DNA from: Eledone cirrhosa
Lineage: Eukaryota
Direction of reading: 5' to 3'
Assembly (NCBI GenBank): GCA_964016885.1
Contig: OZ024741.1
Coordinates: 283,836,001-283,900,000 of the forward strand
Length of the DNA stretch: 64,000 nucleotides
Part shown: positions 25,458 through 56,036 of the stretch, piece after piece
Layout: every line of letters begins with the position of its first letter
Numbering within the stretch: the first letter of the stretch is position 1
The notes under the pieces: generated by a model
Databases searched by the model: none
Told to the model about the DNA's origin: nothing
What the model saw: the letters and a program-made list of their open reading frames with translations, nothing else
Made by a program: the position numbers and the translations under genes

Positions 25458-25484
25458 ATAATAATAATAATAAGGAGAAGAAGA

Positions 25485-26045: not shown

Positions 26046-26063
26046 AATAATAATAATAATAAT

Positions 26064-29046: not shown

Positions 29047-29078
<32 letters not shown>

Positions 29079-29239
29079 GACTGATTTGATGACCCGGTCA
29101 AAAAATCAAAAAACCAAAAATCAAAATCAAAACAGCACAGCAGCAACGAAAAACGTAAAGAAAAGAAAAAAGAAAAGAAAAGCAGACAGACAGACAGACA
29201 GACTGGGGGGGGGGGGGGGGGGGCGGTTTACCTATTTGT

Positions 29240-31632: not shown

Positions 31633-31669
31633 ACAGCAAAGAAACAACAAATTCAAAAATCTCAATACA

Positions 31670-32950
31670 CAGAGGAATATTCCAGGGAGATTCCTTATTC
31701 CCCCTCCTCTTCTCTATAACATTAATTTCTTGTTCTCATGAACTAAGGAATTCTACCTATGGCTACAAAATTAAAGAAAGTCTTTTCAGCCATCACTTCT
31801 ATATGGATGATATTGAGCTCTTCGCTAAAGATGATAACAAATTAGAGGGTCTGCTTAAGATAGTAAAATATTTTAGTGATGACATAGACATGGACTTTGG
31901 TCTTGATAAGTGTGCAAAACTGTCTTTGAAGAAAGGCAAAGTAACTCAAGTTCCAAGATAGACTTGGACATAAACACACAAATGAGACAACTTGATCAAT
32001 AGGACAGCTACAAATATCTTGACATCTCTGAATGCGGGGGAATAAGTCACACCCAAATGAAGGAAAAAGTCAGAAAAGAATATTATAGATGAGTGGGACT
32101 TATCTTAGACACGGAACTCAATTCAAAGAACAGAATATCCATGAAAAAACAACTTAGCAGTACCTGTTGTTCAATACAGCTTTAATATAGTTAAATGGAC
32201 AGTATAGGATATCAATAGATGGATACTAAGATCACATGTCACCCTATGTACCACCCTAAAGCAGACGTTGAGCGATTTTACCTGCCCAGATCTAAGGGAG
32301 GCAGAGGTCTAATCCAATTAAAGCTCTCCTACAAGACAACAACAATTGGCCTGCAACAATATCTTGAAGTAACTAATGAATGGATGAGGGGCAAGCAGTA
32401 AAACAGTATAAAGCCAGCAAAAACTTTAATTCTGTGATAAAAGAAAGCACCAAATATGTGCGCGAAATAAATCTAAGTGCAGATGTGATACAAGAAACTC
32501 CTCTTCCACCAACAGTGTCAGCAAAGTCTAAAAAAACAAAGCAAAAGAAGCAACTATTGATCACATGAAGGAAAATGGCAAAATAAGCCACTACATAGCC
32601 AGTATCGGACTTGAATCAGGGAAGCTGATGTAAACAAAACCCAAACCCATCAGTGGCTGCAGAGTTTAGGACTGAAATCTGAAACAATATTTCATACTGG
32701 CTGCACAAGACCTTGATACAAAAAAATGATCATGCAAACATATTGGGTATAAACATAATGACCTAAAATGCTGGTTCTATGACAGAAATACTGAAACAGT
32801 GGATCACCTAATATCTGCCTGCACCACCTTAGCACCATATTAATATAGAAAAACACACGACAGAGTGGGGAAGAACATACACTGGAAAATATGTGAGTAC
32901 CATGGAAAAGATGTAACAAAAAATCTGGTAACAACATCATCAAGACCTGG
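31670..32950 (+). mobile_element. Second, more degenerate Dong/R4 family fragment (RT C-half)
   Basis: HHFYMDDIELF..., FGLDKCA, HPKADVERFYLPRSKGGRGL. Confidence 0.75.
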
Positions 32951-32971
32951 TATCTGAAATTAGTAATGTAA

Positions 32972-34205
32972 AAATGAGAAAAGACATTGGAAAGCTTGAG
33001 TCTTTACTGAATGAGACATTACAAAACATAGACACTAAAGATAGATTGAAAATAAAATACAAAACTAGGGGAAAAGAGCTAAATGTTATCATAGAGGAAC
33101 TGAAGCAACTCATTGTAGCAAAAAGTGCAAAGATTAGGCAGTATGAGAACAGAGTTAGTCAGTATAGACAGAACCACATGTTTGACAACAACCAGAAGAT
33201 GTTGTTTGAACAGCTTGAAAGGAAAGAAAGAGGCAACGACGTGATCCCTGAGGCGGAACAGACTAAGACATTCTGGAGAGGAATATCGGAGCAGGATGTT
33301 GAACATAATAGTCAGGCAGTGTAGATTGAGACAATTCAAAAGGAGATTAGTGAATAAGCGCACCAACAACCTGATTTGAGTATCACAGTTGAAACTCTTA
33401 AAAAGCAGGCCAAAAAACTAACCAACTGGAAATCACCAGGCCCAGATGGTGTGCAGGGGTATTGGATTAAAAATATAACATCCCTCCACCCGAAACTGAC
33501 AACCATGTTCAATGATTGCTTGATGTCAGGTGAGGTACCAGAGTGGTTGACAAAAGGTACCACAGTTCTGGTAATGAAAGACCGAATCAAGGGTAATGAT
33601 GTTACCAACTATAGACCTATCGCATGTCTGTCCGTAATGTGGAAACTGTTGTCAAGCATTGTGTCTGAAGAAATCTACCATCACCTCCACACAAACAACT
33701 TGTTACTGGATGAACAGAAAGGATGCCGAAAGAAGTCCCGTGGTACAAAGGACCAGTTACTTATTGATAAGATGGTAATGAGGAATTGCAAGAGGAGACA
33801 CACTGGTCTTGCCATGGGATGGATAGACTACAAAAAGGCATTCAACATAGTACCTCATTCGTGGATAACCAAAAGCCTAGAGATCTTCAAGGTGGCAGAT
33901 AAGATCAGACAGCTATTGAGCAAAAGTATGAAGTCCTGGGAAACAGAGTTAACATCAGGTGGAGAATCCTTGGGAGGCGTGAAGATCAAGAGAGGTATCT
34001 TCTATGGAGATAGTTTGTCCCCTCTGTTTTTGTCCTTGCCCTGATACCCCTGTCCATCATATTGCGAAAAGTGAGAGCAGGATACAAGTTGGGAAGAGGA
34101 GAGCTTACCATCAACCACCTCCTCTTCATGGACGATGTTAAACTCTTTGGGAAGAGTGAGAAGGAGTTGGATGTACTTGTTGACAATGTCCGTATTTTCA
34201 CCAGA
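32972..34205 (+). mobile_element. Dong/R4 LINE fragment, highly similar copy of 30175-31310
   Basis: Near-identical translations; continues to HLLFMDDVKLF. Confidence 0.9.
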
Positions 34206-34499
34206 TACCTCCCATCATTAAGGAAACCACAAGTCTGATGAGCTATTGATTTCAGAGTCAGGTGTATCCTATACTGATCGTACCTTGAGCTGATCAATCA
34301 TGAAATGTGTATCACACATGAATAAATATAATGATGATACTATGACACCTCCTTCTTACTCATTATTATTATTAACACTCTGTTTATGAAGGAGACCAAC
34401 CATAGTGTAACACAAAGGAAATGAAAATAAGCAGAAAGAAGACATTCTAAATACACAATAATTTAGGGGTTAAGGAGAGAAACACTTTTTATGAATGAA

Positions 34500-35533
34500 A
34501 TTTATAACTGGAAATGAATTTTTCTAGATTTCTTGACTCACATGGTGTAAGCTTAAGTTGTTCTTTGAACAGAACTATCTTGATTACATATATGGCCTTA
34601 GACATCCAACGAGCCTGGTACAAGGGCCTGGGACTAAGAAAGAAAGCTGGGGAGATGACCAACAACCAAGATAAAGAAGGGAGAGCTTTATGAACTTGAC
34701 AGTCTTCTCAGGAATGATCTCCAGAAAGTAGTACAGTCAGTAGATATTCAGCCATCTCTTCCCTCTTTTGCTTGTAAAAATCTTCCATGGGCTCATCATT
34801 GTCCAGGATAGTTTGATAATGAGACTTATTGATGGACTCCCAATGTTCCTTGAACTTTTTGAATATTAGGATACCGGGATAGATGATGGGAAAAAAATCT
34901 TGAAGACTTTCTTCAAAACAAATTGAAGAATGTGATGGCAGCCAGCCACAAAAAGTATTTTTTCAGAGCTGCTTCAATTTTTGTATTAGCTCCTTGGTGT
35001 GAGCCAGTGGTACTGGCCAGTGGTGTTGAAGGACATACCGATTATTTTATCCTCAATTTTGAGTCATTGAATTTTCTTCAAAACAACTTCACTGATTTGT
35101 TGTTTAGCTCCATCACTTGCAATGTAAGAGCTCCTCCTTTAATTGTAATTAAAACTGCAATCCAATCTTTGAGTGTGCTGGATTGGGAAGCCAATGGTAA
35201 TAATTCTCTCTCCCAGTGGAGGACTAGCCAAGATCTGTTTTCAGGTCTGAAAGTAGATAACTCGATTTCCTGAACCATCTTTTCACAGTGACTTGCATAG
35301 CATTAAAAAAGCACCAAACTATGAAAACCTTAAATATATTCATATCTCCACATATTTTTGCCTGTGCAGCTTTCATGTAAAATAAATAGGGGCACAGTTG
35401 GCATGAAGTGATTTCAACAAAAAATGTTCCCTATAAATATGAAAAATTCAAGACATTAAAATCACTGATCTCCAATACATGGCTAATAAGAAGGGATATG
35501 TCCAGGTATTTCTGTTGCTCTTGTCCTGAGCAC

Positions 35534-35536
<3 letters not shown>
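34500..35536 (-). mobile_element. Degenerate DNA transposase remnant, hAT-like (probably hATm)
   Basis: Across frameshifts: DKIIGMSFNTT..TGSHQGANTKIEAALKKYFLWLA.CHHILQFVLKKVF (DTTASNTG and CxxH-like motifs); TGGGTG-like terminus near 35536. Confidence 0.55.
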
Positions 35537-35599
<63 letters not shown>

Positions 35600-35604
<5 letters not shown>

Positions 35605-35975
35605 TCATACAAGGAACAAAGATGCTACTCATAGTTTCAAGGTCCAAATTTGACCATAACTCAAGAAAACAAGAGGCACCAAATTAATGACTTTATAAGC
35701 TCATAATAATTGTTTCTACTTTTGGCACTTTATTTTATCGACCCCTTATGGATGAAAGGTAAAGTTAACCTCGGCGGGATTTGAACTCAGACCGTAAAGG
35801 GCCGTAACTATGCTGAAAAGCATGGTGTCTGCCTCTCTACCGATACTGCCAATCCACTGCCCTTAAACTCATAATAATGCCTGAAGAAAGGTCACTAATT
35901 TGATGCCTCTTGTATTCTGGAGTCAAATTTGGGCCTTGAAACTTAGGGTAGTGCCTTTGTTCCTTGTATGAACAT
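35600..35975. repeat. ~100-bp palindrome (35600-35700 / 35878-35975) carrying a hammerhead motif, split by a SINE
   Basis: Arms are reverse complements; right arm ATGC-CTGAAGA-AAGGTC...GGCCTT-GAAACTTAGGGTA. Confidence 0.7.
35710..35867 (-). mobile_element. tRNA-derived Nin-domain SINE with CTCATAATAAT target duplication
   Basis: Reverse complement of the 46081 SINE family. Confidence 0.8.
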
Positions 35976-36123
35976 AAAAAAGATAATACAATATTTCTGC
36001 TCTCTTCCCAATTAAGCACTGTTTTCCTTTTTCCACCTATGGATATTGCTATATATACATACATATATATATTGCTTTTTACTCTGTATATGATACTTGC
36101 TTTTTACTTTCTCTCTATATATG

Positions 36124-36175
<52 letters not shown>

Positions 36176-36399
36176 GAAAGTGGGAGATGTATAAGTTATA
36201 TCTACATATACATGTGTGTGTATGTGCATGTGTGTCTGTATTTATGTTCTGTTTGACTTGAAAAAATAAGTACACATATCTATCTATTGATATTTCTCTG
36301 GTGTTGGTGAAATGTAATCAAATAAATCAAGCTGGTACATCAGTATGACTGCAGTCTAACAATCAAAAGCAATAAATAACAGCAATAAATGATACTTAC

Positions 36400-36561
36400 C
36401 CACAGAAACATTTTCTCCATACAGACTTATTCCACATTGGCTGTCATCACTTAAGACTTTAATCACATTTCCCACAATTGGTGAATAACAGTTGACATCA
36501 TTACCATCTGTGATAAACGAGGCACACTCCTGCATTGTTGAGTTATAACCAATTTGAATAT
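36400..36561 (-). CDS. Module 2 exon A (162 nt): DIQIGYNSTMQECASFITDGNDVNCYSPIVGNVIKVLSDDSQCGISLYGENVSV
   Basis: Canonical splice sites, open frame, conserved Cys. Confidence 0.88.
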
Positions 36562-37131
36562 CTGTTGAAAAAAATAATATTGAATGATATTGATGAAAAT
36601 ATTGACTGTTATTGCAAGGCATCACATACAACACTTAATAATTCTTCCAATCCATCACCTTGAACTGGTAATTTATTTTATCAGCCATAAAAGTCAAAGT
36701 TGACCTTGGAGGGATTTGAACTCAGAGCACAGAGAGCCAGAACAAATACCACAAGATCTTCTGTCTGATGTTATAATGACTCCACCAATTCATAGAATAT
36801 TGTATATTTATCAAGAGACATGATTTCCTCCCCACACATACTTTTTACACTTTAACCATTTCATTACCATATTTCTTATGAAAGACATTGACTATGGTGT
36901 TGAAATAATTTTGAAACTAATCAATTATTTGGATAGAATTGGTAATATAACTAACTTTCTCATTATTAGCTGAGGTGTGGACATACAGTGGAAGCTTTTA
37001 GATTGATATAAATACTTTAAAATAAAGTTTTGTATCATAAGAACAGGGGGAAGTTTTAGAGAGTTTGGTGAAGAAAAAGTAAGTAAATATGCCAAAACAA
37101 ACAATTATTGATAAACTGAAGAAAAACTTAC

Positions 37132-37203
37132 CAATGGTTTTCTGCAAGCAATCAGCCGAAGGACGAACATAAACCACACGAAAGAGGTCATCAAGTTCAT
37201 ACA
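37132..37203 (-). CDS. Module 2 exon B (72 nt): VYELDDLFRVVYVRPSADCLQKTI
   Basis: cttcctttctttcag acceptor, G|GTAAGT donor. Confidence 0.85.
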
Positions 37204-37688
37204 CTGAAAGAAAGGAAGATAGACTGTTGATTAGTTTAATGCAAACCTAATTAATGTAGTGAACCAAGAAGTTTTAATTAATTAAAAATTAAGCACCTTG
37301 TAAATTAACAATAAACTCTAGTCAAGAAAGGTAAGAGAAACAACTGTGGTATTTCAATTAAATCAGAACATAGCTTAGAATACATACCATGTGATCCATT
37401 CACCACTTTCTGTATTTAAAAAAACCCCCACTACTTTCAGATTCAATTACACAAGATATCCTGCTCTGAATTAGATCATCAATTCTTCTTTTGACGAAGA
37501 GATTTTTCCCCTGAAATATTAAGGACTATTAAACAACCCCTAGGTAACACTCCAACATCTTAAGTCATGTGCTTCATTCTAGTATCTAAACAATACAGCA
37601 AAATTATACAAGATACTACCCACAATGACCTACAATTATGCTAACACATCTACCAACAGATAAAAGAAAACTAAATAGCTATACTCAC

Positions 37689-37733
37689 CACGTTCATACA
37701 TTTCATTTCCAGGTGTACTTGAGAATAATTTAA
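37689..37733 (-). CDS. Module 2 exon C (45 nt): VKLFSSTPGNEMYER
   Basis: tttttcag acceptor, G|GTGAGT donor, phase 1-1. Confidence 0.8.
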
Positions 37734-38214
37734 CTGAAAAATATAACACATTGAATCAATGGAAGAAAAACAATGTATGATCAATTTGTAGTGAAATCTG
37801 TCCATGCCTTGAACCTTGGGTGACACCTAAAAGTTAAATTCTAGGTCACCATCCTTTTTCGGCGGGGACAGGTTCATGCGTGGGCGATCCCTCGAGGCAG
37901 AGAGACAGAAAGCGACAGGTATATAAAGTCTATATTTTCCCACGTTTTACACAGAGAAATCGGAGCATTACACTAGCAAATAGCTATGTGAAAGATTCAC
38001 TGCTACCTACAGGCCTCTGAGGTTTACAGACAACTGCAGACCATTACTCGCTCTCTCTCCTGGTCTCAGACTACACCAGCCTCATGAACCAATAACAAAA
38101 TAACATCGTCAACCTTCACAACTCGTGGTAACTTGTTTATTGTTCTTTTTGACTGAAGTGAAGTAAACCTTTTTATATATAAAGTAAATCAGCTATTCTT
38201 GTTATTTCATCTAA

Positions 38215-38548
38215 TAGTGGTTAGAGCATTGGCCTTGCAATCGAAAGGTTGTGAGTTCAATTCTCAGACCGGGTGATGTGTTGTTTCCTTGAGCAAGACA
38301 CTTTATTTCACATTGCTCCAGTTTACTCAGCTGTAGAAATGAGGTGATAGGACTGGGGTCCCTATCATTCCACTGCAAAGTGGTCGTGGAGGTGTCATGG
38401 CAAAAAAGCACCCAGCACTCACTGTAAATGAGGTTGGTGTTAGGAAGAGCATCCAGCTGTAGAAATCAAGCCAGAATCAGTTTCCGTCCCACCCTTGCAA
38501 GCAGGGAAAAAGCGGACGTAAAATGAAATGATGATGATGAAATGATGA
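38215..38548 (+). mobile_element. tRNA-head CORE-like SINE with RTE-derived 3' tail
   Basis: A box GTGGTTAGAGC, B box GTTCAATTC, CCTTGAGCAAGACACTT core; tail matches 5300-5576. Confidence 0.75.
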
Positions 38549-38589
38549 ACTACAACCATGAACTACCCTTCGTTACAAATTCATACCTG

Positions 38590-39363
38590 AAATGTGGAGA
38601 CAGTTGACAAAGATAGGAAAAGTGACTTAAAAATTGAACCTGGAGCTCTTATTTTTGCAGCCCAGGAAAAGGCACTGACAACGAACTATATCAAGTTGAG
38701 TATTGACAAGTCAGTGAATTCCCCACTTTGTAGGTTGTGTGGTGAGAAAGGTGAAACAATAAACCACATAATTAGTTTGCTCAGAAAGAGAAGAGAAGGC
38801 ACAACAACATTGCCAGATTGGTTCACTGGAAGTTCTGTCATAAGTATGATATGAGCAGAAGTGAGAAATGGTATGAGCACCAACTGGAAAGGGTGCTGAA
38901 AACAAACAGTAGAAGATCTTGTGGGACATAACCATCCTGTGTGACTATTTTATTGTGGTTAGAGAGCCTGACATTGTTGTTGTAGAAAAGAAGAATAACA
39001 AGGCATGTATTGTGGATATTGCTTCGCCATGGGAACACAGGGTGAATGAGAAGGAAAGTGAGAAAGTTGAGAAATACCAGGAGCTGTAGAGAGAAATCAG
39101 GAAACTATGGAGAATCAGTAGAAGTGGTACTGATTGTCATTGGTGTACTGGGAGCAGTTAGTAAAAGGTTGGATGTATGGCTTGAGAAGCTAGGAATTAC
39201 CATCAGGACGGGATTGTTGCAGAAAACAGTCTTGCTAGGAACAGCAAGGATTCTAAGGAGGGTGTTGGAAAGTTGAAGGAGAAGAAATAACCCAAAGGAT
39301 CTTTAGCCATTGGCTATAGCTCGCTCTTTTAGGTATAACATCTGCCAGAACAAAAGCATTACG
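38590..39363 (+). mobile_element. Dong/R4 LINE 3' fragment
   Basis: IFAAQE, CRLCGEKGETINHI, VLIVIGVLGAV, LQKTVLLGTARILR; ends at (TAA)n. Confidence 0.85.
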
Positions 39364-39383
39364 AATAATAATAATAATAATAA

Positions 39384-41680
39384 CAATGCTTTTTTTATTA
39401 ACCACAAGGGTTTACACAAAGTAGACATTAAGGACAGTACAATACAGGATGGTACAAATGGGCATTTCTGCGTGTAAAAAAAACAAAAAACAGAGGATGT
39501 AACAAAAAAGAACAATGAAAAATTCCCCAATAGGGGGGAGACTTCCGAGGGCCATCGTGGAGAAAGCCCATTAAAAAAGCCACAGTGACCCTGACCACCA
39601 AGGCAAGTACCCTCTCCCAGTTTTCCACCTTCAATTTACAGGCATTCTTGCCTCTCTCACCCATCTTTCAACAAAAAGCTGGGAAGAGAGCACTTCCCTC
39701 TCTACCCTGATTTTCCTTTACAAATGAAATTTGAAAAAGTTAATCAGGGCATCACCGAAGAGGTAAGTGCTCGTCTTGAGCCCTCTCAGATGCGTCCACC
39801 ATACTATCTCTTTCGCCATGGCCACCAGACAGATAAAAACTGCCTGCCCTTCCCGGCTAAAGGAAGAGGGTGGGGCAATCCTCACGATGGACTCAGCTGA
39901 TAGCCGGATCCGTTCTACACGCAACAGCAGATGTTCAACATAAACCCACAAGTCAGCAATGCTCGGACACTGTATGAGTGCATGCAGGACGGTTTTGTTG
40001 CCCTGCGCGCATCTCGGACATGCCCGGCTGATGGCACTTCCATGCCTGTAGAGTTTATCCCGAACTGGCAAAGCTCCTCGGTAGCACTGCCAGGCCAGGG
40101 ATTTCTGGAAATTGTCCATGGGCCCCGGCCCAAAAGTTCTTCCGAAGAGAATGGCTAGTTGATTTTCGTCGATGCCTAGAGTTTCCCCAAGTACGTCGTC
40201 GCTCTTTCCCTCTACTAATCCTCTATAGAACGCTGAGGTGGAGTTTCCACTGATCACATTGCCCGACTGGTCGAGGGCTGTGAGCACCTGAAGACATTCC
40301 AGTCTCCAAGCGCTCCCTCTCGGTCTTTGCTTGACCCAGGACTGCAGCTCCGTCAAGGAAACGAGCTGGGTAAATACGTGTCTAGCAAACGGCGACCACA
40401 CCTGGTCACCGTCGAGGAAAAGGTGGAGATGTCGTAGCCTGAGCGTCTGTCTGCGCATCATCAGCTACGGCATGCCCAGCCCTCCACCTAGCGGGTGTTG
40501 ACAGCAGATGGACCGCCTGACCATCGGAGCACGTCTCTTCCACAAAAAGCGAAAGTGCAAACGCTCCAGCGCAGTCAGGCGAGGCTTAGGACAAGGTACG
40601 ACGGTCAGGCGGTAGTAGATGACAGACGCGATGTACGCATTCACCACCTCCTCTCGACCTTTCAGGGATAGCTTCCTCTCTGCCCATTTCTGGGTGAGAG
40701 AAGCCACTCTGCTCATCACCTCATCCTATTTTTTGTCCGTCTGGAGGTCCGGACCGAACCAGACCCCTAGCAATTTAACTGGTCCATCCATCCAGCACCC
40801 GACGACGCTGTTGGACAGCATGGACCTGCCTCTGCAGGTACCGAGCTGCAGGCCCACCGACTTTTCCTGGTTAATCATTGCTCCAGTCACCGCTTCGTAT
40901 TCTCTTAGTGTAATGCCGATCGCCTCGATATGTTTGGCGTTTGACACCACTACGGTGACATCGTCCGCATATGCTGACACGGATCTTCCGCATTCTAGTT
41001 CATGCGGAACCCCCCTCAACATCTCCAGTTTGTGCAGTAATGGCTCGAGAGTCAATACGTACAAGAGGGACGAGAGGGTACATCCTTGGCGGACCGAGCG
41101 CATGATGTTGAACGGTTCTGAAAGGTGACTGTTCACTCTCACCACAGAGCAGATGTCACTGTGCATGGCAGCAATCCAGCCTCTGAAGACAGGCCCAAAG
41201 CCAGCCGCCCTTAGGACTGCTGCCAGATAACGATGGTTGACCCTATCGAAAGCTTTCGACTGATCTAAATTGATCAAGGATCCACCCATGCCAGGTTCCC
41301 TAGCTACCCTTTCCACGATGTATCACATGAGGTGGAGTTTGTCGTGGATGGATCTGTTGGGAATTGCGCATGTCTGCGCCTCTCCCACCAGACCACCAAC
41401 GACAAGCGCCAACCTCTTTGCTAGCACCTTGGCCCAAATCTTGAACTCTGCGTTTAGCAGAGTTATGGGCCTGAAATTATCTATGCTATCCCCCTTGTTC
41501 GGATCCTTTCTCAGCAACGCCACCGCTCCTTGGCTCACAGAGCTGGGAATTCTCCCGTTCTGTTGCCAGTTGCACGCACCCTAGCTCTGACAACGCAGCC
41601 TTCGTGCTTTGCATTGGGGCCAATTTCGCCGCAAGTACGTCGGTCGCGATGCCTTTGCTAAGCGCCTCATCTAATTTTCT
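39384..41680 (-). mobile_element. Tx1/L1-clade LINE, same family as 26064-29046, internally deleted
   Basis: RT motifs LDQSKAFDRV, SVRQGC, SAYADD; matching 3' UTR; (AAT)n at both ends. Confidence 0.9.
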
Positions 41681-41699
41681 TAATAATAATAATAATAAA

Positions 41700-41850
41700 A
41701 ATAATGTTTCTACTTTTGGCACAAAGCCAGCAATTATCCCAGTGCATTACTGGTGCTTTATTTTATCGACCCCATAAAGATGAAAGGCAAAGTTAACCTC
41801 AGCAGGATTTGAACCCGACTCTCTATCAATACTGCCAATCCACCAAATAA
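41700..41850 (-). mobile_element. Nin-domain SINE fragment
   Basis: Matches 46081 family. Confidence 0.7.
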
Positions 41851-41939
41851 TAATGATAATAAAAACAACAACAGCCAAATGCTCTGTGCTCAATATGAAA
41901 AGAGGGAAAAAAATAGTCTGTAATGGATTAATGCTGCCA

Positions 41940-42360
41940 TAGGGGAACCGGAAGATAGTTGATACAAGTATTTGGGGATTTTAGTACTGGGTGACATTTT
42001 ACATGCAAAAATAAAAGACAAGTTTAGAGAGATATTTAAAATGAGTAAAAATGATTTAAAAGTCAAATCTGAATGCAAAGAATCTAGTCACTATAATGAA
42101 TATTTGGGCAGTTGCAGTAGTTAGATATAATGTGTCCATTCTCAGATGGACTGAAAAATAAATAGCAAAGTTGGATAGAAAGATGATATTGTATGGAGCT
42201 GTACACCCTAAAGCAAATATAAATAGATTGTACATGAAAAGAATGGTGGTAGAGGCTCATCTATGTGGATTATTGTATAAGGAGTGAAAGGAGAACACTT
42301 GCAGAATATTTGGTAAACAGTGACAAAGAGTTATTGCAATATGCAGCAGGATTATACATG
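41940..42360 (+). mobile_element. Degenerate Dong/R4 RT fragment
   Basis: YKYLGI, NIWAVAVVRY, HPKANINRLYMKR..GRG. Confidence 0.65.
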
Positions 42361-42709
42361 TAACACCTGCACTTTGTTATTATATATACATAAATATTGA
42401 AATTATAGTGAGGTCTGATACTTGGTTGACGAGAGGGGACTAGTGACATGTTTGTCACATGTGCCTTTATTTTGATGTGTATGTGCGTGTGTTAGTGTGT
42501 ATGAGTGAGTGTGTGTGCCTGTGTCTATGTTTATGTCCTGTAACGAAATAGTTTGACAAAAAGAAAACAGTAGAAAAACACAAAACTTGAAAAAATAAGT
42601 ACACATCTATATCTATTGATATTTCTCTGGCGTTGGTGAAATGTAATCAAATAAATCAAGCTGGTACATCAGTATAACTGCAGTCTAACAATCAAAAACT
42701 GATACTTAC

Positions 42710-42871
42710 CCACAGTAACATTTTCTCCATACAGACTTATTCTACATTGGCTATCATCACTTATCATTTTCACAAACTTTCCCACAATCTGTGAATAACA
42801 GTCGACATCATTACCATCTGAGACAAACGAGGCACACTCCTTCATTGTTGAGTTATAACCAATTTGAACAT
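42710..42871 (-). CDS. Module 3 exon A (162 nt): DVQIGYNSTMKECASFVSDGNDVDCYSQIVGKFVKMISDDSQCRISLYGENVTV
   Basis: Canonical splice sites, open frame, conserved Cys; not in the ORF track. Confidence 0.88.
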
Positions 42872-42911
42872 CTGTTGAAAAAAATATTGAATGATATTGA
42901 TGAAAGCTTTG

Positions 42912-43800
42912 GTTGTTATTGTGAGGGTAGTGGGGAGAGAGGAAATGTTATTGTGGGGGTAGTGGTGAGAGAGGAGATGTTATTGTGAGGTAGTGGTGAG
43001 AGAGATGTTATTGTGAGGTAGTGGTGAGAGAGGAGATGTTATTGTGAGGGTAGTGGGGAGAGAGGAAATGTTATTGTGGGGGTAGTGGTGAGAGAGGAGA
43101 TGTTATTGTGAGGTAGTGGTGAGAGAGAAGGTGTTATTGTGGGGGTAGTGGGGAGAGAGAAGATGTTATTGTGGGGGTAGTGGTGAGAGAGGAGATGTTA
43201 TTGTGGAGGTAGTGGTGAGAGAGAAGATGTTATTGTGAGGTAGTGGTGAGAGAGGAGATGTTATTGTGAGGGTAGTGGGGAGAGAGAAGATGTTATTGTG
43301 GGGGTAGGGGTGAGAGAGGAGATGTTATTGTGGGGTAGTGGTGAGAGAGAAGATGTCATTGTGAGGTAGTGGGGAGAGAGAGGATGTTTTGAGGGTTGTG
43401 GGTAGAGAGAGGATGTTGTTGATGTGAGGTAGTGGTAACAGAGAGAGGGTGCTATTGTGTAGTAATGGTAACAGAGGGATAGGGAGAGGATGCTGTTGTG
43501 AGGATAGTCATGACAGAGAGAGGGGGGAGAGGATGTTGTGAGGTGATGGTGAGAGAGAGAGAGAGAAGCAGAGTATTTAGTTGTGAGGTAGTGGTAACAG
43601 AGACATGGGTTGTTGGTGTGAAGTAGTTGTAACAGAGAGAGAGGGGGTGTTGTTGTGAGGTCATGGTAACAAAGAGAGGGAGGGTGTTTTTGTGAGGTAG
43701 TGGTAAAAGAGAGAAAGAGAGGTTGTTGTGAGGTAGTGGTAAAAGAGAGAAAGAGAGGTTGTTGTGAGGTAAAGGTAACAGAGAAAGGGAGGAGTAGTTT
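42912..43800. repeat. Diverged short (~33-bp unit) version of the intronic satellite in module 3
   Basis: GATGTTATTGTGAGGTAGTGGTGAGAGAGGA-type units at the homologous position. Confidence 0.9.
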
Positions 43801-44844
43801 CAGTGGTTATTATGGATCCTCCATTGATTTTGACAAAGAATGTTCTAGATGTTTGATCGATGAAACCACCTATTTGTGAAACTAACATGTAAGTGGCTGA
43901 GTATTCCACTACCATATGAACCTTTCTCATAATTATCAGGGAGAATTACTGTGACACAGTGTGTAACATAGATAGATCAATTACAGGTACAGTCCATCTG
44001 ACTAACTTCCAAATAATTTCCTTTTATCCAATTTTGCTAATAGACTTGGCTGAAGGTGAAGCTATTGTAAATGATATTTGTCTAAGATACCATACAGTGA
44101 AATTCATCATCATCATCGTTTAACATCTATTTCCCATGCTAGCATGGGTAGGACGGGTTGACCCTTTGGGAGAGAATCAGGTCAGAGGACTGATATATGC
44201 CATAGCTCAAGCATATGGGAGGGTGGGTCTTCTGTAGTACTGCATAGTACTAGAGGTTGCAGCCCTGTGTCCTGTGAACTCAGAATGGAGAAGCCAGCTT
44301 CTTAACCTCTCAACAATACTTTGGGTTCACTCATAGTAATAATGGTACTTTTAGTTGTCATAGTTGTTATGATGATACTATTCGTTATAAGAGTAGGTAT
44401 GATGATGTGTTGGTTGTAATAGTAGTTGCAATGGTGCTAATGTTTGTAATAATATTTGTAACAAAGCTAGTAGTTGTAATTGTATTTATGACTATGTTAG
44501 TGGTAGAAACAGAAGTTATGAGAGTAATAGTGATTGTAATAATAGTTATAATGATGATAATATATAATAGTAATTATGATGATGATGCTTTAATAGAAGT
44601 GATAATAATGTTAATGGCTGTAATATTTGTTATGACAACACTCGTGGCAGTAATTGTAGTTATAAAGTTGTTTGTGATAATAATTATAACAGTGCTAGTG
44701 ATTATAATAGTTATATGATGTGATAGTGTTTATGATAATTCTAGTATTTGTAATAGTAGTTATGACAGTATTAACTGTTGTAATATTAGTTAGTAACACG
44801 GAGGCTACTGTAATAGATCTTGCGAGGTTATTAATGGTTATAAT

Positions 44845-45863
44845 AACTAGCAGAAAAACTACCCTCCAGACTATTTTCTGCTAGCATGTGTAGTGTGCGT
44901 ATTGATATTATATGCAAATATATATGCATGTAGATATGATACGTCAAATAAAAATTAAATTGAGAATATGCACAGAAATTAAAGAGAGACTGTATTACAC
45001 CCTCTTCTGTAATCAGTAAAGTAATCCATGATACATTAAAAGAAGATATCTTATATAAACTGCATTACGGCAAAATGTTAGGAAAATGGAAAAGTAGAAA
45101 AAAGGGATTAGCAACAGAAATATAAACATTATGATAGAACGAGGCGAATATAGCGTACAGTGAAATGTTGTGATATAACGGACACTCCTTGTGATATTGT
45201 TATCTTTTGCTCTGGTAGTGGTTCGTTTGTCCACTCACTTTTGCTTGCCTTTTGTTGTATGTGGTCCTAGATGTATACTTGCTTGTGTGTTTTATTATGT
45301 TTTCCTTTCTCTTTTCTTTTTTTTTGTTTGTAAAACAATAAAATAAAACTACATTTGTAACAGTATTTACACAACTGTAAATAAAATCGTAATTGACAAT
45401 ATGCACAGAAATTGAACAAAGACTGTTACACTTTCTTCTGCAATCAGTAAAGTAATCCATGATACATTTGAAAAAGATGATATTATATTTAAACAGTATT
45501 ATGGTGAAATGTTATGTTATTTAAATGGCATTACAGTGAAATGTTATGTTATTTAAATGGCATTATGGTGAAATGTTATGAAAATGGAAAAGGAGAAAAT
45601 GAGATTTAAATGTTATGATAGAAGGAATGCTAACAGAAGTGTTGTCATTTGAAAATTTTAAAAGAAGTGAATCTTGAAATAAGCAATACATTTTATATAT
45701 AAGAATATTTATGTTTAATCAAGAGCTATGAAATTTAGTACATAAATATTCATTCATGCTTTATTCAAAGTAATCCAATTTATTTTAATAACGTGTTAAA
45801 AAAAAAAATAAAATAAATAAAAAGGTCACAGTCTCGTAGTTCACCATTTATTATATTTTAGAT
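44845..45863. mobile_element. Probable Helitron/Helentron-like non-autonomous insertion with internal ~200-bp direct repeat
   Basis: Interrupts the 30-bp repeat; begins ACTAGCAG, ends TTATATTTTAGAT; repeats at about 44945-45140 and 45375-45620. Confidence 0.45.
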
Positions 45864-46080
45864 AGTTGTGATGGTGCTAAGGTTTGTAATAATATTTATA
45901 ACAAAGCTAGTAGTTGTAATAGTATTTATGACAAATCTAGGGGTTATAATAGTAGTTAAGACAATGCTAATGTTTTTATTACTAGTTATGATAAAGCTAT
46001 TAGTTGTAATAGTAGTTATGATGATACTTCTATTATTGGTTATGGATATACTTACAGCCTGTCATTAATTAAGAAGATAC

Positions 46081-46270
46081 TAAGGGCGGTGGATTGGCAG
46101 TATCGGTAGAGGGTCGGACGCCATGCTTTCCAGCATAGTTACGTCCCTTTACGATCTGAGTTCAACTCCCGCCGAGGTTGACTTTGCCTTTCATCATTAC
46201 GGGGTCGATAAAATAAAGTACCAGTAATGCACTGGGTAATTGCTGGCCTTGTGCCTAAAGTAGAAACAAT
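46081..46270 (+). mobile_element. Full-length tRNA-derived Nin-domain SINE with ~19-bp TSD
   Basis: A/B boxes, GTTGACTTTGCCTTTCATC...GGTCGATAAAATAAAGTACC; flanking ATTAATTAAGAAGATACTA duplication. Confidence 0.85.
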
Positions 46271-46492
46271 TAATTAAGAAGATACTAGTTGTCATATTAG
46301 TTATGACAATGTTAATGTTTGTTATGTTAGTTATAATGAGGTTGGTGGCTGTAATAGTAGTTATGTAGTTATAATGATTCTAGTGTTTATAATAGTATAA
46401 ATTATGAGGATACTGGTTGTTGTGTTAATAGTTATGATTATGTTGGTGAATATTATTGTAGTTATTTGGGTACTAATGGCCTTGTTATAATG

Positions 46493-46935
46493 ATAATAAT
46501 AATGAAAATTATTGTGTACAGGTGCATTACAACTCATCAAAGGTACATGTATAGTACATAGAATAATGTACAAATGTCAGGAAAGTGAACAGTGTATGAG
46601 TCATGATATACACACAGATAAATGTGTGCATGTGTATTGAGGGGGAATATCAGGTGTAGTTTTGGTGAATTTCAGGAAGCATTGAAGTTTTGAAGGATGC
46701 AGTGTCCCAACAGCTAACAACTGATGCAGGTAGTTTGTTCCAGGGTTCAGCAACTCTGAGTGTGAAAAAATGTTTCCAAAAGTCATGGGAGCTGTGCTGT
46801 TTTCTGATTTTGTAAGCATGTTCACGGGTGTTAGACACATGGAATTCAAAAAGGTGTTCAGGGTTGTTGTTGGCAAGATGGTTAATTATTTTGTGGGTGT
46901 CTACAAAGTCAGTTGCCAGACATCGGACCTTTTTC
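46493..46935 (-). mobile_element. CR1/L2-group LINE 3' fragment, same family as 5833-7250
   Basis: Colinear with about 5835-6270. Confidence 0.88.
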
Positions 46936-48368
46936 AGAATGGTAGTGGTTATAATAATAATTACGATGAGGCTGGGGGCTGTAATAGTAGTTATGATGGT
47001 GCAAGTTATGATAGTATTTGCAATGGTGCTGATATCTGTAATAATATTTATGGCAATGCTACTGGTTGCAATAGCAGTTATGACAATGCTGATGGTTGTA
47101 ATAGTAGTTATGAGGGTGGATGAGGTGGTAATAGTAATTACAACGATGTTAGTGGTTCTTATGTTTGTTCTGACAATGCAAGAGGCTGTAATAAAAATTA
47201 TGATGATATTAGTGTTTGTAAAAGTGTTTATCATGATGCTAGTGATTGTAATAGTAGTTATAGAGATACTGGAATTTGTTATAGCAGATATAGCATTGCT
47301 AGTAGTTCTAATAGTAGTTATGACAGTGCTAGTGGTTGTAAAAGTTATTCTGGAGGAGGCTGTAATATTAGTCATGACAATGCTAGTGATTGCAATAACT
47401 CTTATGATGATGGTAGTGGCAGTAAGCGTAGCAAAGTTTGTTTTGGTATTTTTGCCGCATAGTCAGCAGAATAATTAGATCCCCTATATTTATCAGGGCC
47501 TCTGAGATTGCTAAGAGGCAGGTAAAATGTTAATCTTAGACAGTAAGACCTGGTCTGAATATTTGGAACTATGGACTGTCCTAACAGCATCCATGAAGCC
47601 AGGAGATGGATTAAGTCACCACTAAACAACAGGATCATCCACCAACTCTGCTGAGCTCCCTACCACATAAATATTTCTTTCTTCCATTTATGATCTGGAA
47701 ACATGATTTGCTGAGGATGTCTATCAAGTTGTGACCTCATTATCAGATAGCTGGCCTTGTCAATTGGTGATATTTCAATACCTAAGTTGAATTTGAACCC
47801 AGATTGCAAAGTTCCAAAACAGATCCTGCAAGGCATCACACCCAACACTTAATAATTCTGCCAATCTGTCATCTTGAACTGGTAATTTATTTTATCAGCC
47901 ATGAAATCATGAAAGTCAAAGTTGACCTTGGAGGGATTTGAACTCAGAGCACAGAGAGCCAGAACAAATACCACAAGATCTTCTGTCTGATGTTATAATG
48001 ACTCCACCAATTCATAGAATATTGTATATTTATCAAGAGACATGATTTCCTCCTCACACATACTTTTTACACTTTAACCATTTCATTACCATATTTCTTA
48101 TGAAAGACATTGACTATGATGTTGAAATAATTTTGAAACTAATCAATTATTTGGATAGAATTGGTAATATAACTTTTTCATTATTAAGCTGGTATTTGGA
48201 ATATAATTTAAGAAAGGTTTATACATACAGTGGCAGCTTTTAGATTGATATAAACACTTTTAAATAAAGTTTTGTATCATAAGAACCGGGAGTAGTTTTA
48301 GGTAGTTTGGTTAAGTAAAGGTTAAGTAAATATGCCAAAACTATTTGATGAACTAAAGAAAAACTTAC

Positions 48369-48440
48369 CAATGGTTTTCCCAAAACACTCAGTTGAAGGA
48401 CGAACATAAACCACACGAAAAAGTTTATTAAGTTCATACA
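48369..48440 (-). CDS. Module 3 exon B (72 nt): VYELNKLFRVVYVRPSTECFGKTI
   Basis: ttttcctttctttcag acceptor, G|GTAAGT donor, open. Confidence 0.85.
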
Positions 48441-49254
48441 CTGAAAGAAAGGAAAATAGACTGGTGATTAGTTGCTAACATGATTAATGTTGTGAAACAA
48501 GAGGTTTTAATTAATTAAAAGTGAAATAACTCATCAAATAACAATAATAACAGTCTTGAAGATAAACTCTAGTCAAGAAAGGCATGAGAGACAACTCTGT
48601 CTTTTCATTTAATTAAAATTACAGAAAAATAGATTGCAATAGAAACAGGGGCCATTATCTAATCTTTGGTTGTTTAGTGATAATCTTGAATATGTTTCTT
48701 TATTATCAGACCCCTTCAGCAATGCATAGCCTAGCAAGGGTTGCCGGATGTTAAGATGAAATACAGATATATATATATTCTAAGTGAGTAAAGTTCAGCC
48801 CTGTCAGATTACTTCCTTGGTTTAGTTAATCATATTTGTGCCTGTACGTATTTTTCAAGTTTCATACTAATTTCATCAATGTCTCCTTTGTCAAGTTATG
48901 GAACATAAACATAGGCAAACACAAATGTAGACACAGACACACATCCAAACACACATATATTAATGTATATATAATAGGCTTCTGCAGATTCTCTTTACTA
49001 AAATCCACTTGCAAGTTATTGGTTAATCCGAGGCTGTAGACACTTGCCTACAGTCCTACACAGTGGGATTCAACCCAGAATCAACTTGTTTTTTCGTAAA
49101 TACATAAGACAGTTAAAATTAATCAAGTGTTTCATTCTGGTTGACACATGAGTCTAAGCAATGCAGCAAAATTATACAAAATGCTACCCACAATCACCTG
49201 TATTTATGCTAACGCGGCTACCAACAAAGAAAAGAAATAGACAGTGACACTCAC

Positions 49255-49299
49255 CTAGTTCATATCTTCTATAACTAGTTTGACTTTGGAATAAATTAT
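49255..49299 (-). CDS. Module 3 exon C (45 nt): DNLFQSQTSYRRYEL
   Basis: ttttcag acceptor, TAG|GTGAGT donor, phase 1-1, open. Confidence 0.8.
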   Translation of the reverse strand: MIYSKVKLVIEDMN

Positions 49300-49319
49300 C
49301 TGAAAATTACAACAACAAT

Positions 49320-49470
49320 AATAATAGTAATAATTTCTGATTTGGGCACAAGGCCAGCAATTTTAGGTGAGGGGAAAGTCGATTAAATCAACCCAGTGTA
49401 TTACTGATGCTTTATTTTATCGACCTTGTAAGTATGAAAGGCAAAGCTCACCTTGGCAGGATTTGAACAA
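49320..49470 (-). mobile_element. Nin-domain SINE 3' fragment in the AAT tract upstream of exon C3
   Basis: TTTATTTTATCGACC...GAAAGGCAAAG...GGATTTGAAC. Confidence 0.7.
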
Positions 49471-49829
49471 TAATATCAATAATAATATGATAACAAAAAA
49501 AAAAACAGCCAAGGAAATCAAACAATTACAATGATGCCCATGCCACCACAACCATGACTATCGCAACCATAGAAGCATTTGAAAGAAGTAACAATTTAAA
49601 AAATGATAATAAAGATTTCATCATTAGCCACACAGGACTCACATTAAGAAAACATTAAAGACGGCACTAAGATCTTTAATTGGGATAATGATAAATGTCA
49701 CATAAATTGCCCCAATCAAGTGATGGTGTCACGTTAAAAACACTGGTGTTAGTGCAACATTAAATTCAATAATCTTCTTTATGAGTGTTGAAATATGAAA
49801 CCTAAATAGTTCAAATAATGGTGAAAAGG

Positions 49830-52800
49830 AGTCTTGTGAAGGAATCTCCCCCAGCAAGTGTTCCCTGGCCCAGCAGCAGGAATCCAGCTGTCATCCAAAA
49901 ACTGTTGGTTTTGGAGGAAGAAGCAACTGGACAAAGGAATTGATATCAATATTGGTCTATTTAAATTATAGGTGAACAAAAACTAGTGAGTCAGGCTCAT
50001 GTAATAAGAACGAATGGATGGATAAGCAGGTTGGAATTGGAGGAACTGAGTAGAGTGATTAAGCTGGAAATGGAAAGTGGGTTAGATCAGGCAAATGAGC
50101 CTGTAGAAAGTGGATTGAATCAGTGAGTCAATAGAAAATGGAGGTGAAGCAGTTGTGTGACCTTAGGAAGTGACTGACAAAGACAATGATCTAAATGTTG
50201 AAATAAATAACATCTGGATTAAAGATATGGGCATTGAGAAAATGAACACTGATGGGCAAGATTTTGTTGATATTTTGAATTTAATGGTGGATGAAATGAA
50301 TAATGATAGTGGAAAATAAATGAATCTAAGATCTATAGAAGTTAAAAGAAATGTCAGCTAAGATAAACAGGGTCGTCCCATACCTTAAGGTGAAGAATCT
50401 TCACCAATGCAATATCCTCAAAACAGCTGTAAATGTGGTGAAAGGATTGCTTGGTATAAAATCAAGAGAAAACAGATAAGAAAGGATAGAACTGTGGTGG
50501 TAGCAGTGTTTGAATGGTCAAATAAAAGAAATAAGAAAGGACATCAGGAAACTTGAATCTTTATTAAATGGAACATTACAAAACACAGATACTAAGGATA
50601 GATTGACAAGGGAATACAACACAAAGAGAAAAGGTCTAAATGTTATAATAGAGGAACTAAAGCAATGTGTCACAGCCAAAAGTGCAAAAATTAAAAGATA
50701 TGAGAGATGAGTTAGCAAATGTAAACAAAACTGCATATTCGACAACAACCAGATGTTATTTGGACAGATTGAAGAGAGAAAGAAGCAATGGTGTTATTCC
50801 TGAGACTGAATGGACTAACACATTTTGGAGAGGGATACAGGAGCAGAATATTGAGCATAATAGTCGGGCAGAGTGATTTGAGACTGTTAAAGAGGAAGTT
50901 AATGACCAAGTACACCAATTTAAGTATTATAGTTGAAGCCCTTAAAAAACAGGCCAATAAATTAACCAACTGGAAATCACCAGGCCTGTATGGTGTACAA
51001 GGATATTCAACTAAAAATATGTCTGTCCACCCAATACTGACGGCCATGTTCAATGATTGCTTGGTGTCGAGTGAAGTACCACAGTGTTTGACAAAAGATG
51101 CCCGGTTCTAATAATGAAAGACCAAGCCAAATGACATTATTAACTATAGGCCTATCACATCTCTGTCCTTGATGTAGAAATTACAAACAAGTATTATGTC
51201 AGAGGAAATCTACCACCACCTCGACATAAACAACCTCTTGTTGAAGGAACAGAAAGGATGCTGAAAGACATTGCATGGTACAAAAGACCAATTACTTATT
51301 AACAAGATGATAATAAGGATATGCAAGAGGAGGCATACTGGTCTAGTCATGGGATGGATAGGTTACAAGAAGACATTCGACATGGTTCCTCATTCTTGGA
51401 TAATCAAGTGTCTGGAAATCTTCAAGGTAGCAGACAACATCAAACTGTTATTAAGTAATAGCAGGAATACTTGGGAGACAGAGTTAATATCATCGATAGA
51501 ATCCTTGGGAGGAGTGAAAATCAAGAGAAGTATCTTCCAAAGAGAGAATTTGTCTCCTTTATTGTTTGTCCTTACCATAATGCCCTTGTCCCTCATATTG
51601 CGAAAAGCGAATGCAGGATACAAACTGGGGAGAGCTTACCATCGACCACCTCCTCTTCATTGATGGCCTAAAACTCTTCGAGAAGAGTGAGGAGTTTGAT
51701 GTACTTGTTAACATTGTTCATATTTTCAGCAATAATATATATATATGGAATTAAGTGTTAATAAGTGTGGAGTCCTAGTGGTGAGGATAGGTAAATTGAA
51801 GAGAAGCAAAGGAATTGAGGTATCTGTGAGTGAGGTGATAAAGGAGATCATCGCCAAAGAAGGATGTAAGTGTTTGGGTGTTCTGAAAGCAGGTAACATC
51901 AAGGACAATAAAATGAAGATGATAATATCTGAATATATAAGGAGAGTAAGGAATATACTAAAATCACATCTGAACAGTAGAAATGCCATATGAGCAGTAA
52001 ATTCCCGAGCTGTGTCTATTATTAGGTAGAGTGCAGGAATTCTTAAATGGAATGTAGATGAGCAAATAGAACTAGATAGAAAGATAAGGAATTAATGTCT
52101 ATCTACAGTATGTTTCATAAGAAGGGTGATGTTGATAGACTGTACTGAAAGAGATATGAATGTATAAGAGGCCTTATCAGTGTGGAGGACTGTGTTCAGA
52201 TGGAAAAGAGCTGTTTACGCAAATATATGTCTGAGAGTAATGAGCCAATGTTTAAGGCTGTATTGAAAGAGGAGACACTAGATTAGGGGTGTCCAAGAAA
52301 GAAGTAGCAACTAAGAGGAAGAACAACCTGAATGAAAAGGCCCTTTACGGCATCTTTTTGAAGAAACCAGAATTTAAAGATCCACAGACATGGGATGGTT
52401 AAAGGAAAGGGACTTTAAAAAAGCTACAGATTGAATCCTACAGGCTGCAAGCCTTTAGAACGAAGTGGATGAAACATCATAATGACAAGGAGGATAGCCC
52501 ACTTTGTAGGATCTGTGGAGAGAGAGAGAGAGAGAGAGAGGAAACTGTGGCTCACATCATGTCCGAGAGTAAACACATAGCCCAGAATCACTATAAAGGA
52601 TGGAGGCATGATATCATAGAAAAAATGATTCACTGACATTTATACATTTATACAAAATGAATAATTTACCTGATTCTGAAAAATGATGTGAGTATAAGCC
52701 AGAGTTGGTCATAGAAAACGATCGGATGAAGGTGGTGTTGTATTTCAGGATACAAACAGACAAAGAATTAGACAATAGGCTTGACCTCGTGGTGTTTGAC

Positions 52801-53165
52801 AAGAGAAAAAGAACTTGTTTGATTATAGATGTAGTTTGCCCCTTTGACATAAGAGTGTAAGGACAGGAAAGGGAGAAAATTAACTGATACCAGGATCTAA
52901 ATTGGAAACTGAAAAGGATTTGGGACTGTCATGAGATCAAGGTCGTCCTCATCATCATAGGAGCACTAGGTACTATCTTGAAGAGCTTCAAAGGCTGCTT
53001 AAAGAACATTAGCCCAGCCCTCTTTTTTGGAACATTTGAAAAGGCATGCTTACTGGGAACAACAAGAACCCTCCGATACATCTTGAATATCTAAGGCTGC
53101 GGGTAGCTGCTTGATGTTTATTAGGGCAAATTTTCTGGTTAAATAACATCCATGACGGAGATATC
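49830..53165 (+). mobile_element. Near full-length, heavily decayed Dong/R4 LINE (family of 29240 element)
   Basis: Colinear from 5' region through RT, zinc knuckle and RLE; many stops and frameshifts. Confidence 0.85.
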
Positions 53166-53179
53166 AAATTCATAGTAAT

Positions 53180-53370
53180 TACTTCTACTTTTGGCACAAG
53201 GCTAGTAATTACCCCAGTGCATTATTGGTGCTTTATTTTATTGAGCCCGTAAGGATGAAAAGCAAAGTTAACCTCGGAGGGATTTGAACACAGACCATAA
53301 AGGGCTGTAACTCTATGCTGCAACGCATGGCATCCGACCCTCTACAGATACTGCCAATCCACCGCCCAAT
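53180..53370 (-). mobile_element. Nin-domain SINE
   Basis: Matches 35710/46081 family. Confidence 0.8.
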
Positions 53371-53389
53371 CAAATTCATAATAATAATG

Positions 53390-55650: not shown

Positions 55651-55832
55651 TCACAAAAAGAAATTAATAAAGAAAGTAAAAGACTTGAAAAAAAAGTATA
55701 CAATCCTATCTATGGATAGTTCTTTGGTGTGGTGAAAATTGATCATCCCAACTGAGGTAATACACTAGCATTGTGGCACTCTAGCTATCAAAAACAGAAA
55801 ATAGATAACAGCAATAAATGATATGTACTTAC

Positions 55833-55994: not shown

Positions 55995-56036
55995 CTGTTG
56001 AAAAAATAATATTGAAAGATGTTGATGAAAACAATG

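What the first reader, a model, noticed from the sequence alone, without database searches (positions are those of the whole stretch)
36400..48440. Exons diverge by amino-acid replacements while neighbouring intron blocks stay nearly identical
Hand count: exons A2 and A3 differ at 14 codons, 13 non-synonymous and 1 synonymous. Exons B1 and B3 differ by 14 substitutions plus a 3-nt indel in 72 nt, mostly replacements. The four C exons share only L and YE. By contrast the intron block ~19190-19600 is almost base-for-base identical to ~47770-48180, and in part to ~36630-36965. Lengths, frame, Cys and splice sites are preserved. Inference: positive/diversifying selection, as seen in immune, venom or gamete-recognition proteins.
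Basis: partly seen in the sequence, partly recalled or inferred. Interest (0 to 1): 0.8.

Follow-up and report, generated by a model that had tools for sequence, protein, structure and literature searches.

The report
Octopus surface protein, nine shuffled modules
These exons are repeated modules of an undescribed octopus-type gene predicted to encode a cell-surface protein: its nine copies have swapped DNA patches and stayed intact while their amino acids changed about as fast as silent sites, likely giving a varied set of binding domains, although selection for that variety is only weakly supported.

Summary
The exons belong to a ~167 kb minus-strand gene: a predicted signal peptide, nine B+A modules with twelve C linker exons (30 exons, all in frame, no stop), PLAT-type domains, a Thr-rich stalk and a mollusc-type membrane anchor. 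It lies among five related loci. Counted per site, A2 versus A3 gives dN/dS 1.19, and A and B average about 1. Flanking introns diverge about as much as the exons. The near-identical block is a local tract in the B-A intron of four of nine modules, most likely gene conversion. The modules are mosaics (PHI p=0.0005; the A and B trees reject each other). Purifying selection is clear: no stops against 12 expected, four invariant cysteines, radical changes halved. Positive selection is borderline: M2a p=0.014-0.056 on whole exons and 0.17-0.34 after splitting for recombination; 1 of 59 null simulations reached the real value. Best reading: a lineage-specific adhesion or recognition protein whose modules are shuffled by conversion and evolve under loose, probably mildly diversifying selection, resembling oyster bindin. 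Expression and ligand are untested.

The parts
36400..36561 (-). Exon A2 (162 nt, phase 1-1): second half of the module domain, three invariant Cys
37132..37203 (-). Exon B2 (72 nt, phase 1-1): first half of the module domain, one invariant Cys
37689..37733 (-). Exon C2 (45 nt): inter-module linker
42710..42871 (-). Exon A3
48369..48440 (-). Exon B3
49255..49299 (-). Exon C3
55833..55994 (-). Exon A4
60937..61008 (-). Exon B4
63447..63491 (-). Exon C4
9395..9556 (-). Exon A1 (last module); mosaic, 48 nt identical to A4 and 36 nt identical to A8
20659..20727 (-). Exon B1 (69 nt, one codon shorter)
24496..24540 (-). Exon C1
19181..19696 (.). Homogenised intron block, module 1 copy; 3-4% divergent from the copies in modules 2, 3, 7 and 9-10% from module 9; partly made of dispersed-repeat remnants
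36612..37033 (.). Homogenised intron block, module 2 copy
47767..48275 (.). Homogenised intron block, module 3 copy
9602..18332 (.). 35/36-bp minisatellite, about 244 copies, just before the A1 acceptor
42914..43784 (.). Related 32-36-bp minisatellite just before the A3 acceptor
56039..59533 (.). Same minisatellite, about 97 copies, just before the A4 acceptor
1..64000 (-). The whole window lies inside the predicted gene. Outside it, in window numbering continued: modules 5-9 with linkers C5-C12 at 66207-110022 (18 exons); candidate first exon 112757-112589; nine exons from -1838 to -43962 (the one at -17094 passes the Pfam PLAT cut-off; one small linking exon not found); Thr-rich exon at -47731; terminal membrane exon -54477 to -54817

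Best explanation
The exons are nine tandem modules of one gene predicted to encode a single-pass cell-surface protein; the modules are mosaics of one another, likely through gene conversion, and selection keeps their frame and cysteines while amino acids change at about the silent rate, likely with mild selection for variety. Shown: 30 symmetric phase-1 exons without a stop, mosaic ancestry, an intron tract shared by modules 1, 2, 3 and 7, and purifying selection on frame, cysteines and radical changes. Inferred: the gene model (signal peptide, nine degenerate galactose-binding-like beta-sandwich modules with Ser/Thr linkers, about five PLAT-type domains, stalk, membrane anchor); that a single ancestral module, still single in two neighbouring paralogs, was amplified; that exchange in the B-A intron recombines half-domains; that the array presents varied binding surfaces for adhesion or recognition (gamete, microbe or self). 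Because all exons are symmetric, alternative splicing could vary the module number; this is untested.
For: ORF of 876 codons across 30 of 30 exons. Only 9 A and 9 B matches in the genome, all in this locus. Neutral simulation: 12.0 stop-bearing columns expected, 0 of 2000 runs with none; four invariant Cys P=0.0005; 21 of 76 invariant columns against 11.9, P=0.004. A-exon replacements are conservative (mean BLOSUM62 0.77 against -0.43; 0 of 5000 draws); radical dN/dS in A+B 0.5-0.6, p 0.004-0.04. Mosaicism: PHI p=0.0005 in A; AU tests reject each exon's tree on the other's data, p<0.001; A2 is 3.7% from A5 while B2 is 19% from B5, and B5 is 9.7% from B8 while A5 is 22% from A8. Tract core 0-2% divergent among modules 2, 3, 7, rising to 15-17% in exon B. 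Some excess of replacements: whole-exon M2a vs M1a p=0.014, 0.056, 0.016 and M8 vs M8a p=0.002, 0.008, 0.002 under three frequency models; 1 of 59 mosaic-tree null runs reached the real statistic; conservative dN/dS 1.67, reached by 3 of 190 null runs. Architecture: PLAT hit E=1.1e-5, 26.5 bits against a cut-off of 23; terminal exon resembles unnamed Mollusca clusters, score 0.93, and has 15 matches in the genome, five within 0.85 Mb; two neighbours share the PLAT exon and carry single B-like and A-like exons in the same order.
Against: With segment-specific trees the site tests weaken: M2a p=0.17 and 0.34, M8 vs M8a p=0.03 and 0.07. Under the GY model conservative dN/dS (1.29) is not significant, p=0.23. 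The upstream flank of B is as divergent as exon B (16-21% against 15-17%), so there is no two-sided divergence peak. The fold assignment is weak: no significant Pfam, PDB or database hit for A, profile comparison probability at most 10%, model pLDDT 48.7. One exon of the model is missing. Expression is untested.
Confidence: 0.6

Rival explanations
1. Relaxed constraint only: the modules are a spacer or stalk that must fold and stay in frame, but their sequence drifts neutrally; conversion explains both the intron tract and the apparent site signal.
For: M0 dN/dS 0.89 (A) and 0.74 (B); partitioned M2a not significant; flanks diverge like exons; a PAML guide states that high recombination inflates false positives in site tests (PMC10127084, passages).
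Against: Radical changes are suppressed while the overall rate stays near 1, so conservative changes run at 1.3-1.9; 1 of 59 recombining null runs matched the real value; C linkers have M0 dN/dS 1.5-2.1, though not significant on their own by M2a.
Confidence: 0.27
2. Strong diversifying selection: selection removes conversion events that would homogenise exons, so introns stay alike while exons race apart.
For: The tract fills most of the 570-663-nt B-A intron of modules 2 and 7 yet fades towards exon B and stops short of exon A; divergence peaks amid conversion are a described signature of selection (PMC3924837, passages).
Against: No return to identity on the far side of exon B; exons are themselves shared in identical patches of 36-104 nt; the fast site class is only 1.6-1.9.
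Confidence: 0.1
3. Pseudogene or assembly artefact: dN/dS near 1 reflects dead copies or collapsed or falsely duplicated repeats.
For: dN/dS near 1; modules 5 and 6 are 98-99% identical; one linking exon not found.
Against: No stop or frameshift in 30 exons; the three length changes are 3, 3 and 15 nt; 0 of 2000 neutral runs stay open. Collapse would make copies identical, not 10-25% apart. Module 6 was left out of the codon models.
Confidence: 0.03

Closest known systems
Oyster sperm bindin (tandem F-type lectin repeats), as described in review PMC5712786 (passages read)
   Same: Tandem carbohydrate-binding-like repeats; an intron of very variable size in the middle of each domain where recombination shuffles halves (here 223-11102 nt); a purine/pyrimidine-skewed satellite just before an exon acceptor; fast amino-acid change.
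   Different: Bindin is an acrosomal protein with 1-5 full ~140-aa F-type domains; here nine ~78-aa modules lack the fucose-binding motif and are followed by PLAT-type domains and a predicted membrane anchor. Selection here is weak and unproven.
Octopus F-type-lectin/EGF receptor tyrosine phosphatases (P0004-P0014)
   Same: They carry a short degenerate beta-rich domain of similar length and Cys spacing before their F-type domain (alignment over 65 columns, probability 10%), and related loci lie on the same contig.
   Different: No EGF repeats were seen and no phosphatase match lies near this gene; the similarity is not significant.
PLAT/LH2-domain proteins (PF01477), including polycystin-1/REJ receptors (family layout recalled, from no call)
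   Same: One exon passes the Pfam PLAT cut-off; paralog exons match just below it.
   Different: Here the PLAT region precedes the single predicted membrane helix and the frame stops shortly after it; no multi-pass channel region follows.
Duplicated genes under conversion plus selection, such as the human red/green opsins (PMC3924837, passages)
   Same: Homogenised intron next to divergent exon.
   Different: The peak is one-sided here, and the units are modules inside one gene.

Membership tests
F-type lectin domain | Fucose-binding motif H-x24-R-x-D-x4-(R/K) (PMC5712786) | tested here: not met
   No R-x-D segment in any of the 9 B exons at the matching place, read by eye
F-type lectin domain | About 140-aa domain matching F5/8 or F-type Pfam models | tested here: not met
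   Modules are 76-78 aa; no such Pfam hit for 9 of 9 A exons or for the 2 of 9 B exons scanned, each singly
Galactose-binding-like (F5/8 type C) fold | Jelly-roll beta-sandwich fold | tested here: inconclusive
   ESM features list DUF5000 and F5/8 clusters at 0.89, a lead only; profile probability 2-10%; the A-only model has pLDDT 48.7; the spliced module was not folded
PLAT/LH2-domain protein | PF01477 match above the curated cut-off | tested here: met
   1 of 8 exons scanned (26.5 bits, cut-off 23); the other downstream exons do not match and are called PLAT-type from exon phase and pattern only
Polycystin-1/REJ family | PLAT domain after the first membrane helix, followed by a multi-pass region (recalled) | tested here: not met
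   PLAT precedes the only hydrophobic helix seen, and the terminal exon stops soon after it
Receptor tyrosine phosphatase | Cytoplasmic PF00102 domain | tested here: not met
   0 of 88 genome matches lie near the locus; stop after the membrane helix
Gene under positive selection | Site class with dN/dS above 1 that survives control for recombination | tested here: inconclusive
Gamete-recognition or immune receptor | Expression in gametes or immune tissue, and ligand binding | not testable with these tools

The most novel reading that the evidence does not exclude
An octopod membrane receptor that builds a combinatorial binding repertoire inside one gene: nine half-domain-shuffled lectin-like modules diversified by selection and, through symmetric exons, spliced in variable numbers, a membrane-anchored counterpart of oyster bindin used in gamete or microbe recognition.
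Probability: 0.2. Interest if true: 0.75.

Novelty: new variant of a known kind. Interest (0 to 1): 0.45.

Why it matters
Cephalopod gamete-recognition and diversified recognition proteins are little characterised (my recollection; the paper searches listed nothing on this gene). This locus supplies a concrete candidate with an architecture not found in the searches run (nine degenerate lectin-like modules, PLAT-type domains, mollusc-type anchor) and a small paralog cluster for comparison. It is also a clear teaching case: a 13:1 codon count plus a conserved intron looks like strong selection but is mostly neutral expectation plus a conversion tract.

Tried and rejected
Homolog searches for the A alignment found nothing real: 0 of 2142 candidates at E<=0.1 among longer proteins, and one ankyrin-repeat-like protein at E=5.9e-4 among 1.84 billion representatives, judged chance; PDB sequence hits had E>=0.35. 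The PLAT exon found 0 of 13 candidates. These searches with short exons are weak evidence of absence, and the spliced protein was not searched. AlphaFold on exon A alone was uninformative, so no fold search was run. RNA: no RNA holder listed, no evidence either way. DNA contigs of three runs of one sample: contigs over modules 5/6 had depth about 10-22 against 5-16 in the window, but depth is no copy number, so the reality of the 5/6 duplication is unsettled. Receptor phosphatase and polycystin readings were rejected (membership table). A young-transposon explanation of the intron block was rejected: other genomic copies of its repeat part are 75-86% alike, the module copies 96-97%. ESM search with a paralog A-like exon gave no usable hit. 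The module profile against the paralog's B+A-like exons ranked 15th among 1001 with shuffles, weak. The missing small exon was sought three times without a convincing hit; an 85-nt candidate at -4548 has the right phase but a non-significant score. The primary bindin paper was not held. Earlier scan findings near this place or like the terminal exon: none.
Full report
Setting. The window lies on a 416-Mb contig of a 3.0-Gb genome. An F-type-lectin exon from this genome has Octopus proteins as its best relatives at about 60% identity, so the animal is inferred to be an octopod; I did not determine the species. Coordinates outside 1-64000 below continue the window's numbering.

Observation. Their weight does not. 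Only about 22% of sites in these AT-rich exons are synonymous, and codons with several changes hide silent differences. A2 vs A3 has 18 differences, of which 3.5 are synonymous by pathway counting, where about 4 are expected by chance; dN/dS is 1.19. Over all pairs pS and pN are equal for A and B, and pN is higher in C (0.37 vs 0.23).

The gene. Genome searches found 9 A and 9 B matches, all in one ~100-kb array. With 12 C exons they give 30 exons between 110022 and 9395, each a multiple of 3 long, phase 1 at both ends, AG/GT bounded, and open over 876 codons. The repeating unit in transcript order is B-A followed by one to three C. Upstream lies a candidate first exon (112757-112589) with a predicted signal peptide; its hydrophobic part may alternatively be a polypyrimidine tract before an acceptor at 112708. 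Downstream lie nine exons (-1838 to -43962) alternating phase 1-0 and 0-1, one of which passes the Pfam PLAT cut-off (1 of 8 scanned), a Thr-rich exon (-47731), and a terminal exon (-54477) with a Cys cluster, a basic segment, a hydrophobic helix and a stop. The part up to the first downstream exon translates to 991 residues without a stop and with 24 N-glycosylation sequons; the remainder to 624 residues and the stop. One small exon joining the two parts was not found. The model is ab initio. The terminal exon resembles unnamed Mollusca clusters (the tool's recognition value was below its threshold, so weak) and has 15 genome matches, five of them within 0.85 Mb. Two neighbours share the PLAT exon at 37-43% identity and have single B-like and A-like exons in the same order, identified by eye. 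This suggests that one ancestral domain was amplified ninefold in this paralog only.

What the module is. No significant database, Pfam or PDB hit. The pattern resembles the C-terminal two thirds of a galactose-binding-like jelly roll (resemblance recalled); ESM features give F5/8 and DUF5000 clusters as leads at 0.89, and profile comparison with Octopus domains gives 2-10% probability. The fucose-binding motif of F-type lectins (PMC5712786, passages) is absent. The fold call is a hypothesis.

The intron block. It is present in modules 1, 2, 3 and 7 at 3-4% pairwise divergence and in module 9 at 9-10%. Among modules 2, 3 and 7 divergence runs 16-21% upstream of B, 15-17% in B, 7-11% over the next 200 nt, 0-2% in the core and 0-5% beyond. 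It is partly built of dispersed-repeat remnants whose other copies are 75-86% alike. It is therefore a valley in one intron, most simply a conversion tract, not a general property of the introns: 120-nt flanks diverge about as much as exons. It does fade towards the exon, which is compatible with selection against homogenising the exon (signature described in PMC3924837, passages), but there is no return to identity on the other side.

Mosaic modules. PHI-type permutation p=0.0005 for A and for B+A, 0.24 for B, 0.04 for C. A and B trees reject each other (AU p<0.001). Modules 5/6 combine a B8-like with an A2-like exon, so the breakpoint falls in the B-A intron, as the review reports for oyster bindin.

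Selection. Codon models were my own implementation, not codeml: branch lengths from M0, then rescaled; A6, B6 and C5 dropped as near-duplicates (8 of 9 A, 8 of 9 B, 11 of 12 C sequences), C6 padded with gaps, one inserted A8 codon removed. Purifying selection is clear (stops, cysteines, invariant columns; radical changes in A+B about halved). Overall dN/dS is 0.93-1.24 by model. Whole-exon site tests on A+B+C: M2a vs M1a p=0.014, 0.056, 0.016; M8 vs M8a p=0.002, 0.008, 0.002; fast class 1.6-1.9 on 43-71% of sites; A+B alone and C alone do not pass M2a (p 0.08-0.19). Recombination can inflate such tests (PMC10127084, passages). With six segment trees: M2a p=0.17 and 0.34, M8 vs M8a p=0.03 and 0.07; segment trees overfit and may cost power. 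Null data simulated on those mosaic trees and analysed with whole-exon trees reached the real statistic (7.8) in 1 of 59 runs and the nominal 5% level in 2 of 59; real mosaicism may be finer than simulated. Conservative replacements in A+B run at 1.29 (p=0.23), 1.67 (p=0.017; 3 of 190 null runs) or 1.85 (p=0.004) by model, and radical ones in C at about 2 (p 0.03-0.15). These several tests were not corrected for multiplicity. Verdict: loose constraint is well supported, mild diversifying selection is somewhat more likely than not, strong selection is not shown.

Mechanism. Shown: module amplification with symmetric exons, sequence exchange among modules, retention of frame and cysteines. Inferred: a membrane-anchored, glycosylated rod presenting nine variant beta-sandwich modules, serving adhesion or recognition. 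Ligand, tissue and splicing are unknown.

Literature. Searches (listings and abstract starts only) showed no paper on this gene or architecture; the library lacks most subscription papers, and no supplements were read, so annotation tables there could name it. Two unreviewed AI notes from other octopus genomes describe similar exon-versus-intron patterns in other domain families; they are leads, not support.

Score. A real, apparently undescribed gene with an unusual architecture and a bindin-like pattern of shuffling, but the headline claim is only weakly supported and the processes are known: interest 0.45.

Noticed in passing
window 9602-18332, 42914-43784, 56039-59533; continued numbering 106265-106757: The same 35-37-bp minisatellite sits just before the A acceptor in 4 of 9 modules, from 0.5 to 8.7 kb long; pyrimidine-rich on the coding strand, so it might affect splicing or exchange.
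   Followed up: partly
window 18638-19145, 44270-44783, 45863-47418, 59600-59886: Degenerate ~30-bp repeats in the same B-A introns.
   Followed up: no
L001 (continued numbering 64599-72396): Modules 5 and 6 are a 98-99% identical ~4.4-kb tandem duplication with identical A and B exons; recent duplication or assembly artefact unsettled.
   Followed up: partly
window 26044-28900, 39365-41680, 29616-34200, 49951-53100: Retroelement-like fragments shared between several C-A introns at 73-94% identity; judged by eye, not classified.
   Followed up: no
G000:C2:283.57, 284.03, 284.24, 284.41 Mb: Four neighbouring paralogs with the same terminal membrane exon (49-57% identity); two share the PLAT exon and single B/A-like exons; an apparently unstudied cluster.
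   Followed up: partly
G000:C2:230.9-261.9 Mb (L030-L034): Five F-type-lectin exons, several near tyrosine-phosphatase matches, on the same contig; relatives of Octopus receptor phosphatases.
   Followed up: partly
L040 (G000:C2:284.050-284.059 Mb): A long ~47-bp tandem array inside the span of the next paralog.
   Followed up: no
C exons, e.g. window 37689-37733: The 14-codon linkers, not the folded modules, show the highest dN/dS (1.5-2.1) and no preference for conservative changes, while keeping the terminal Y-E-x pattern in most copies.
   Followed up: partly
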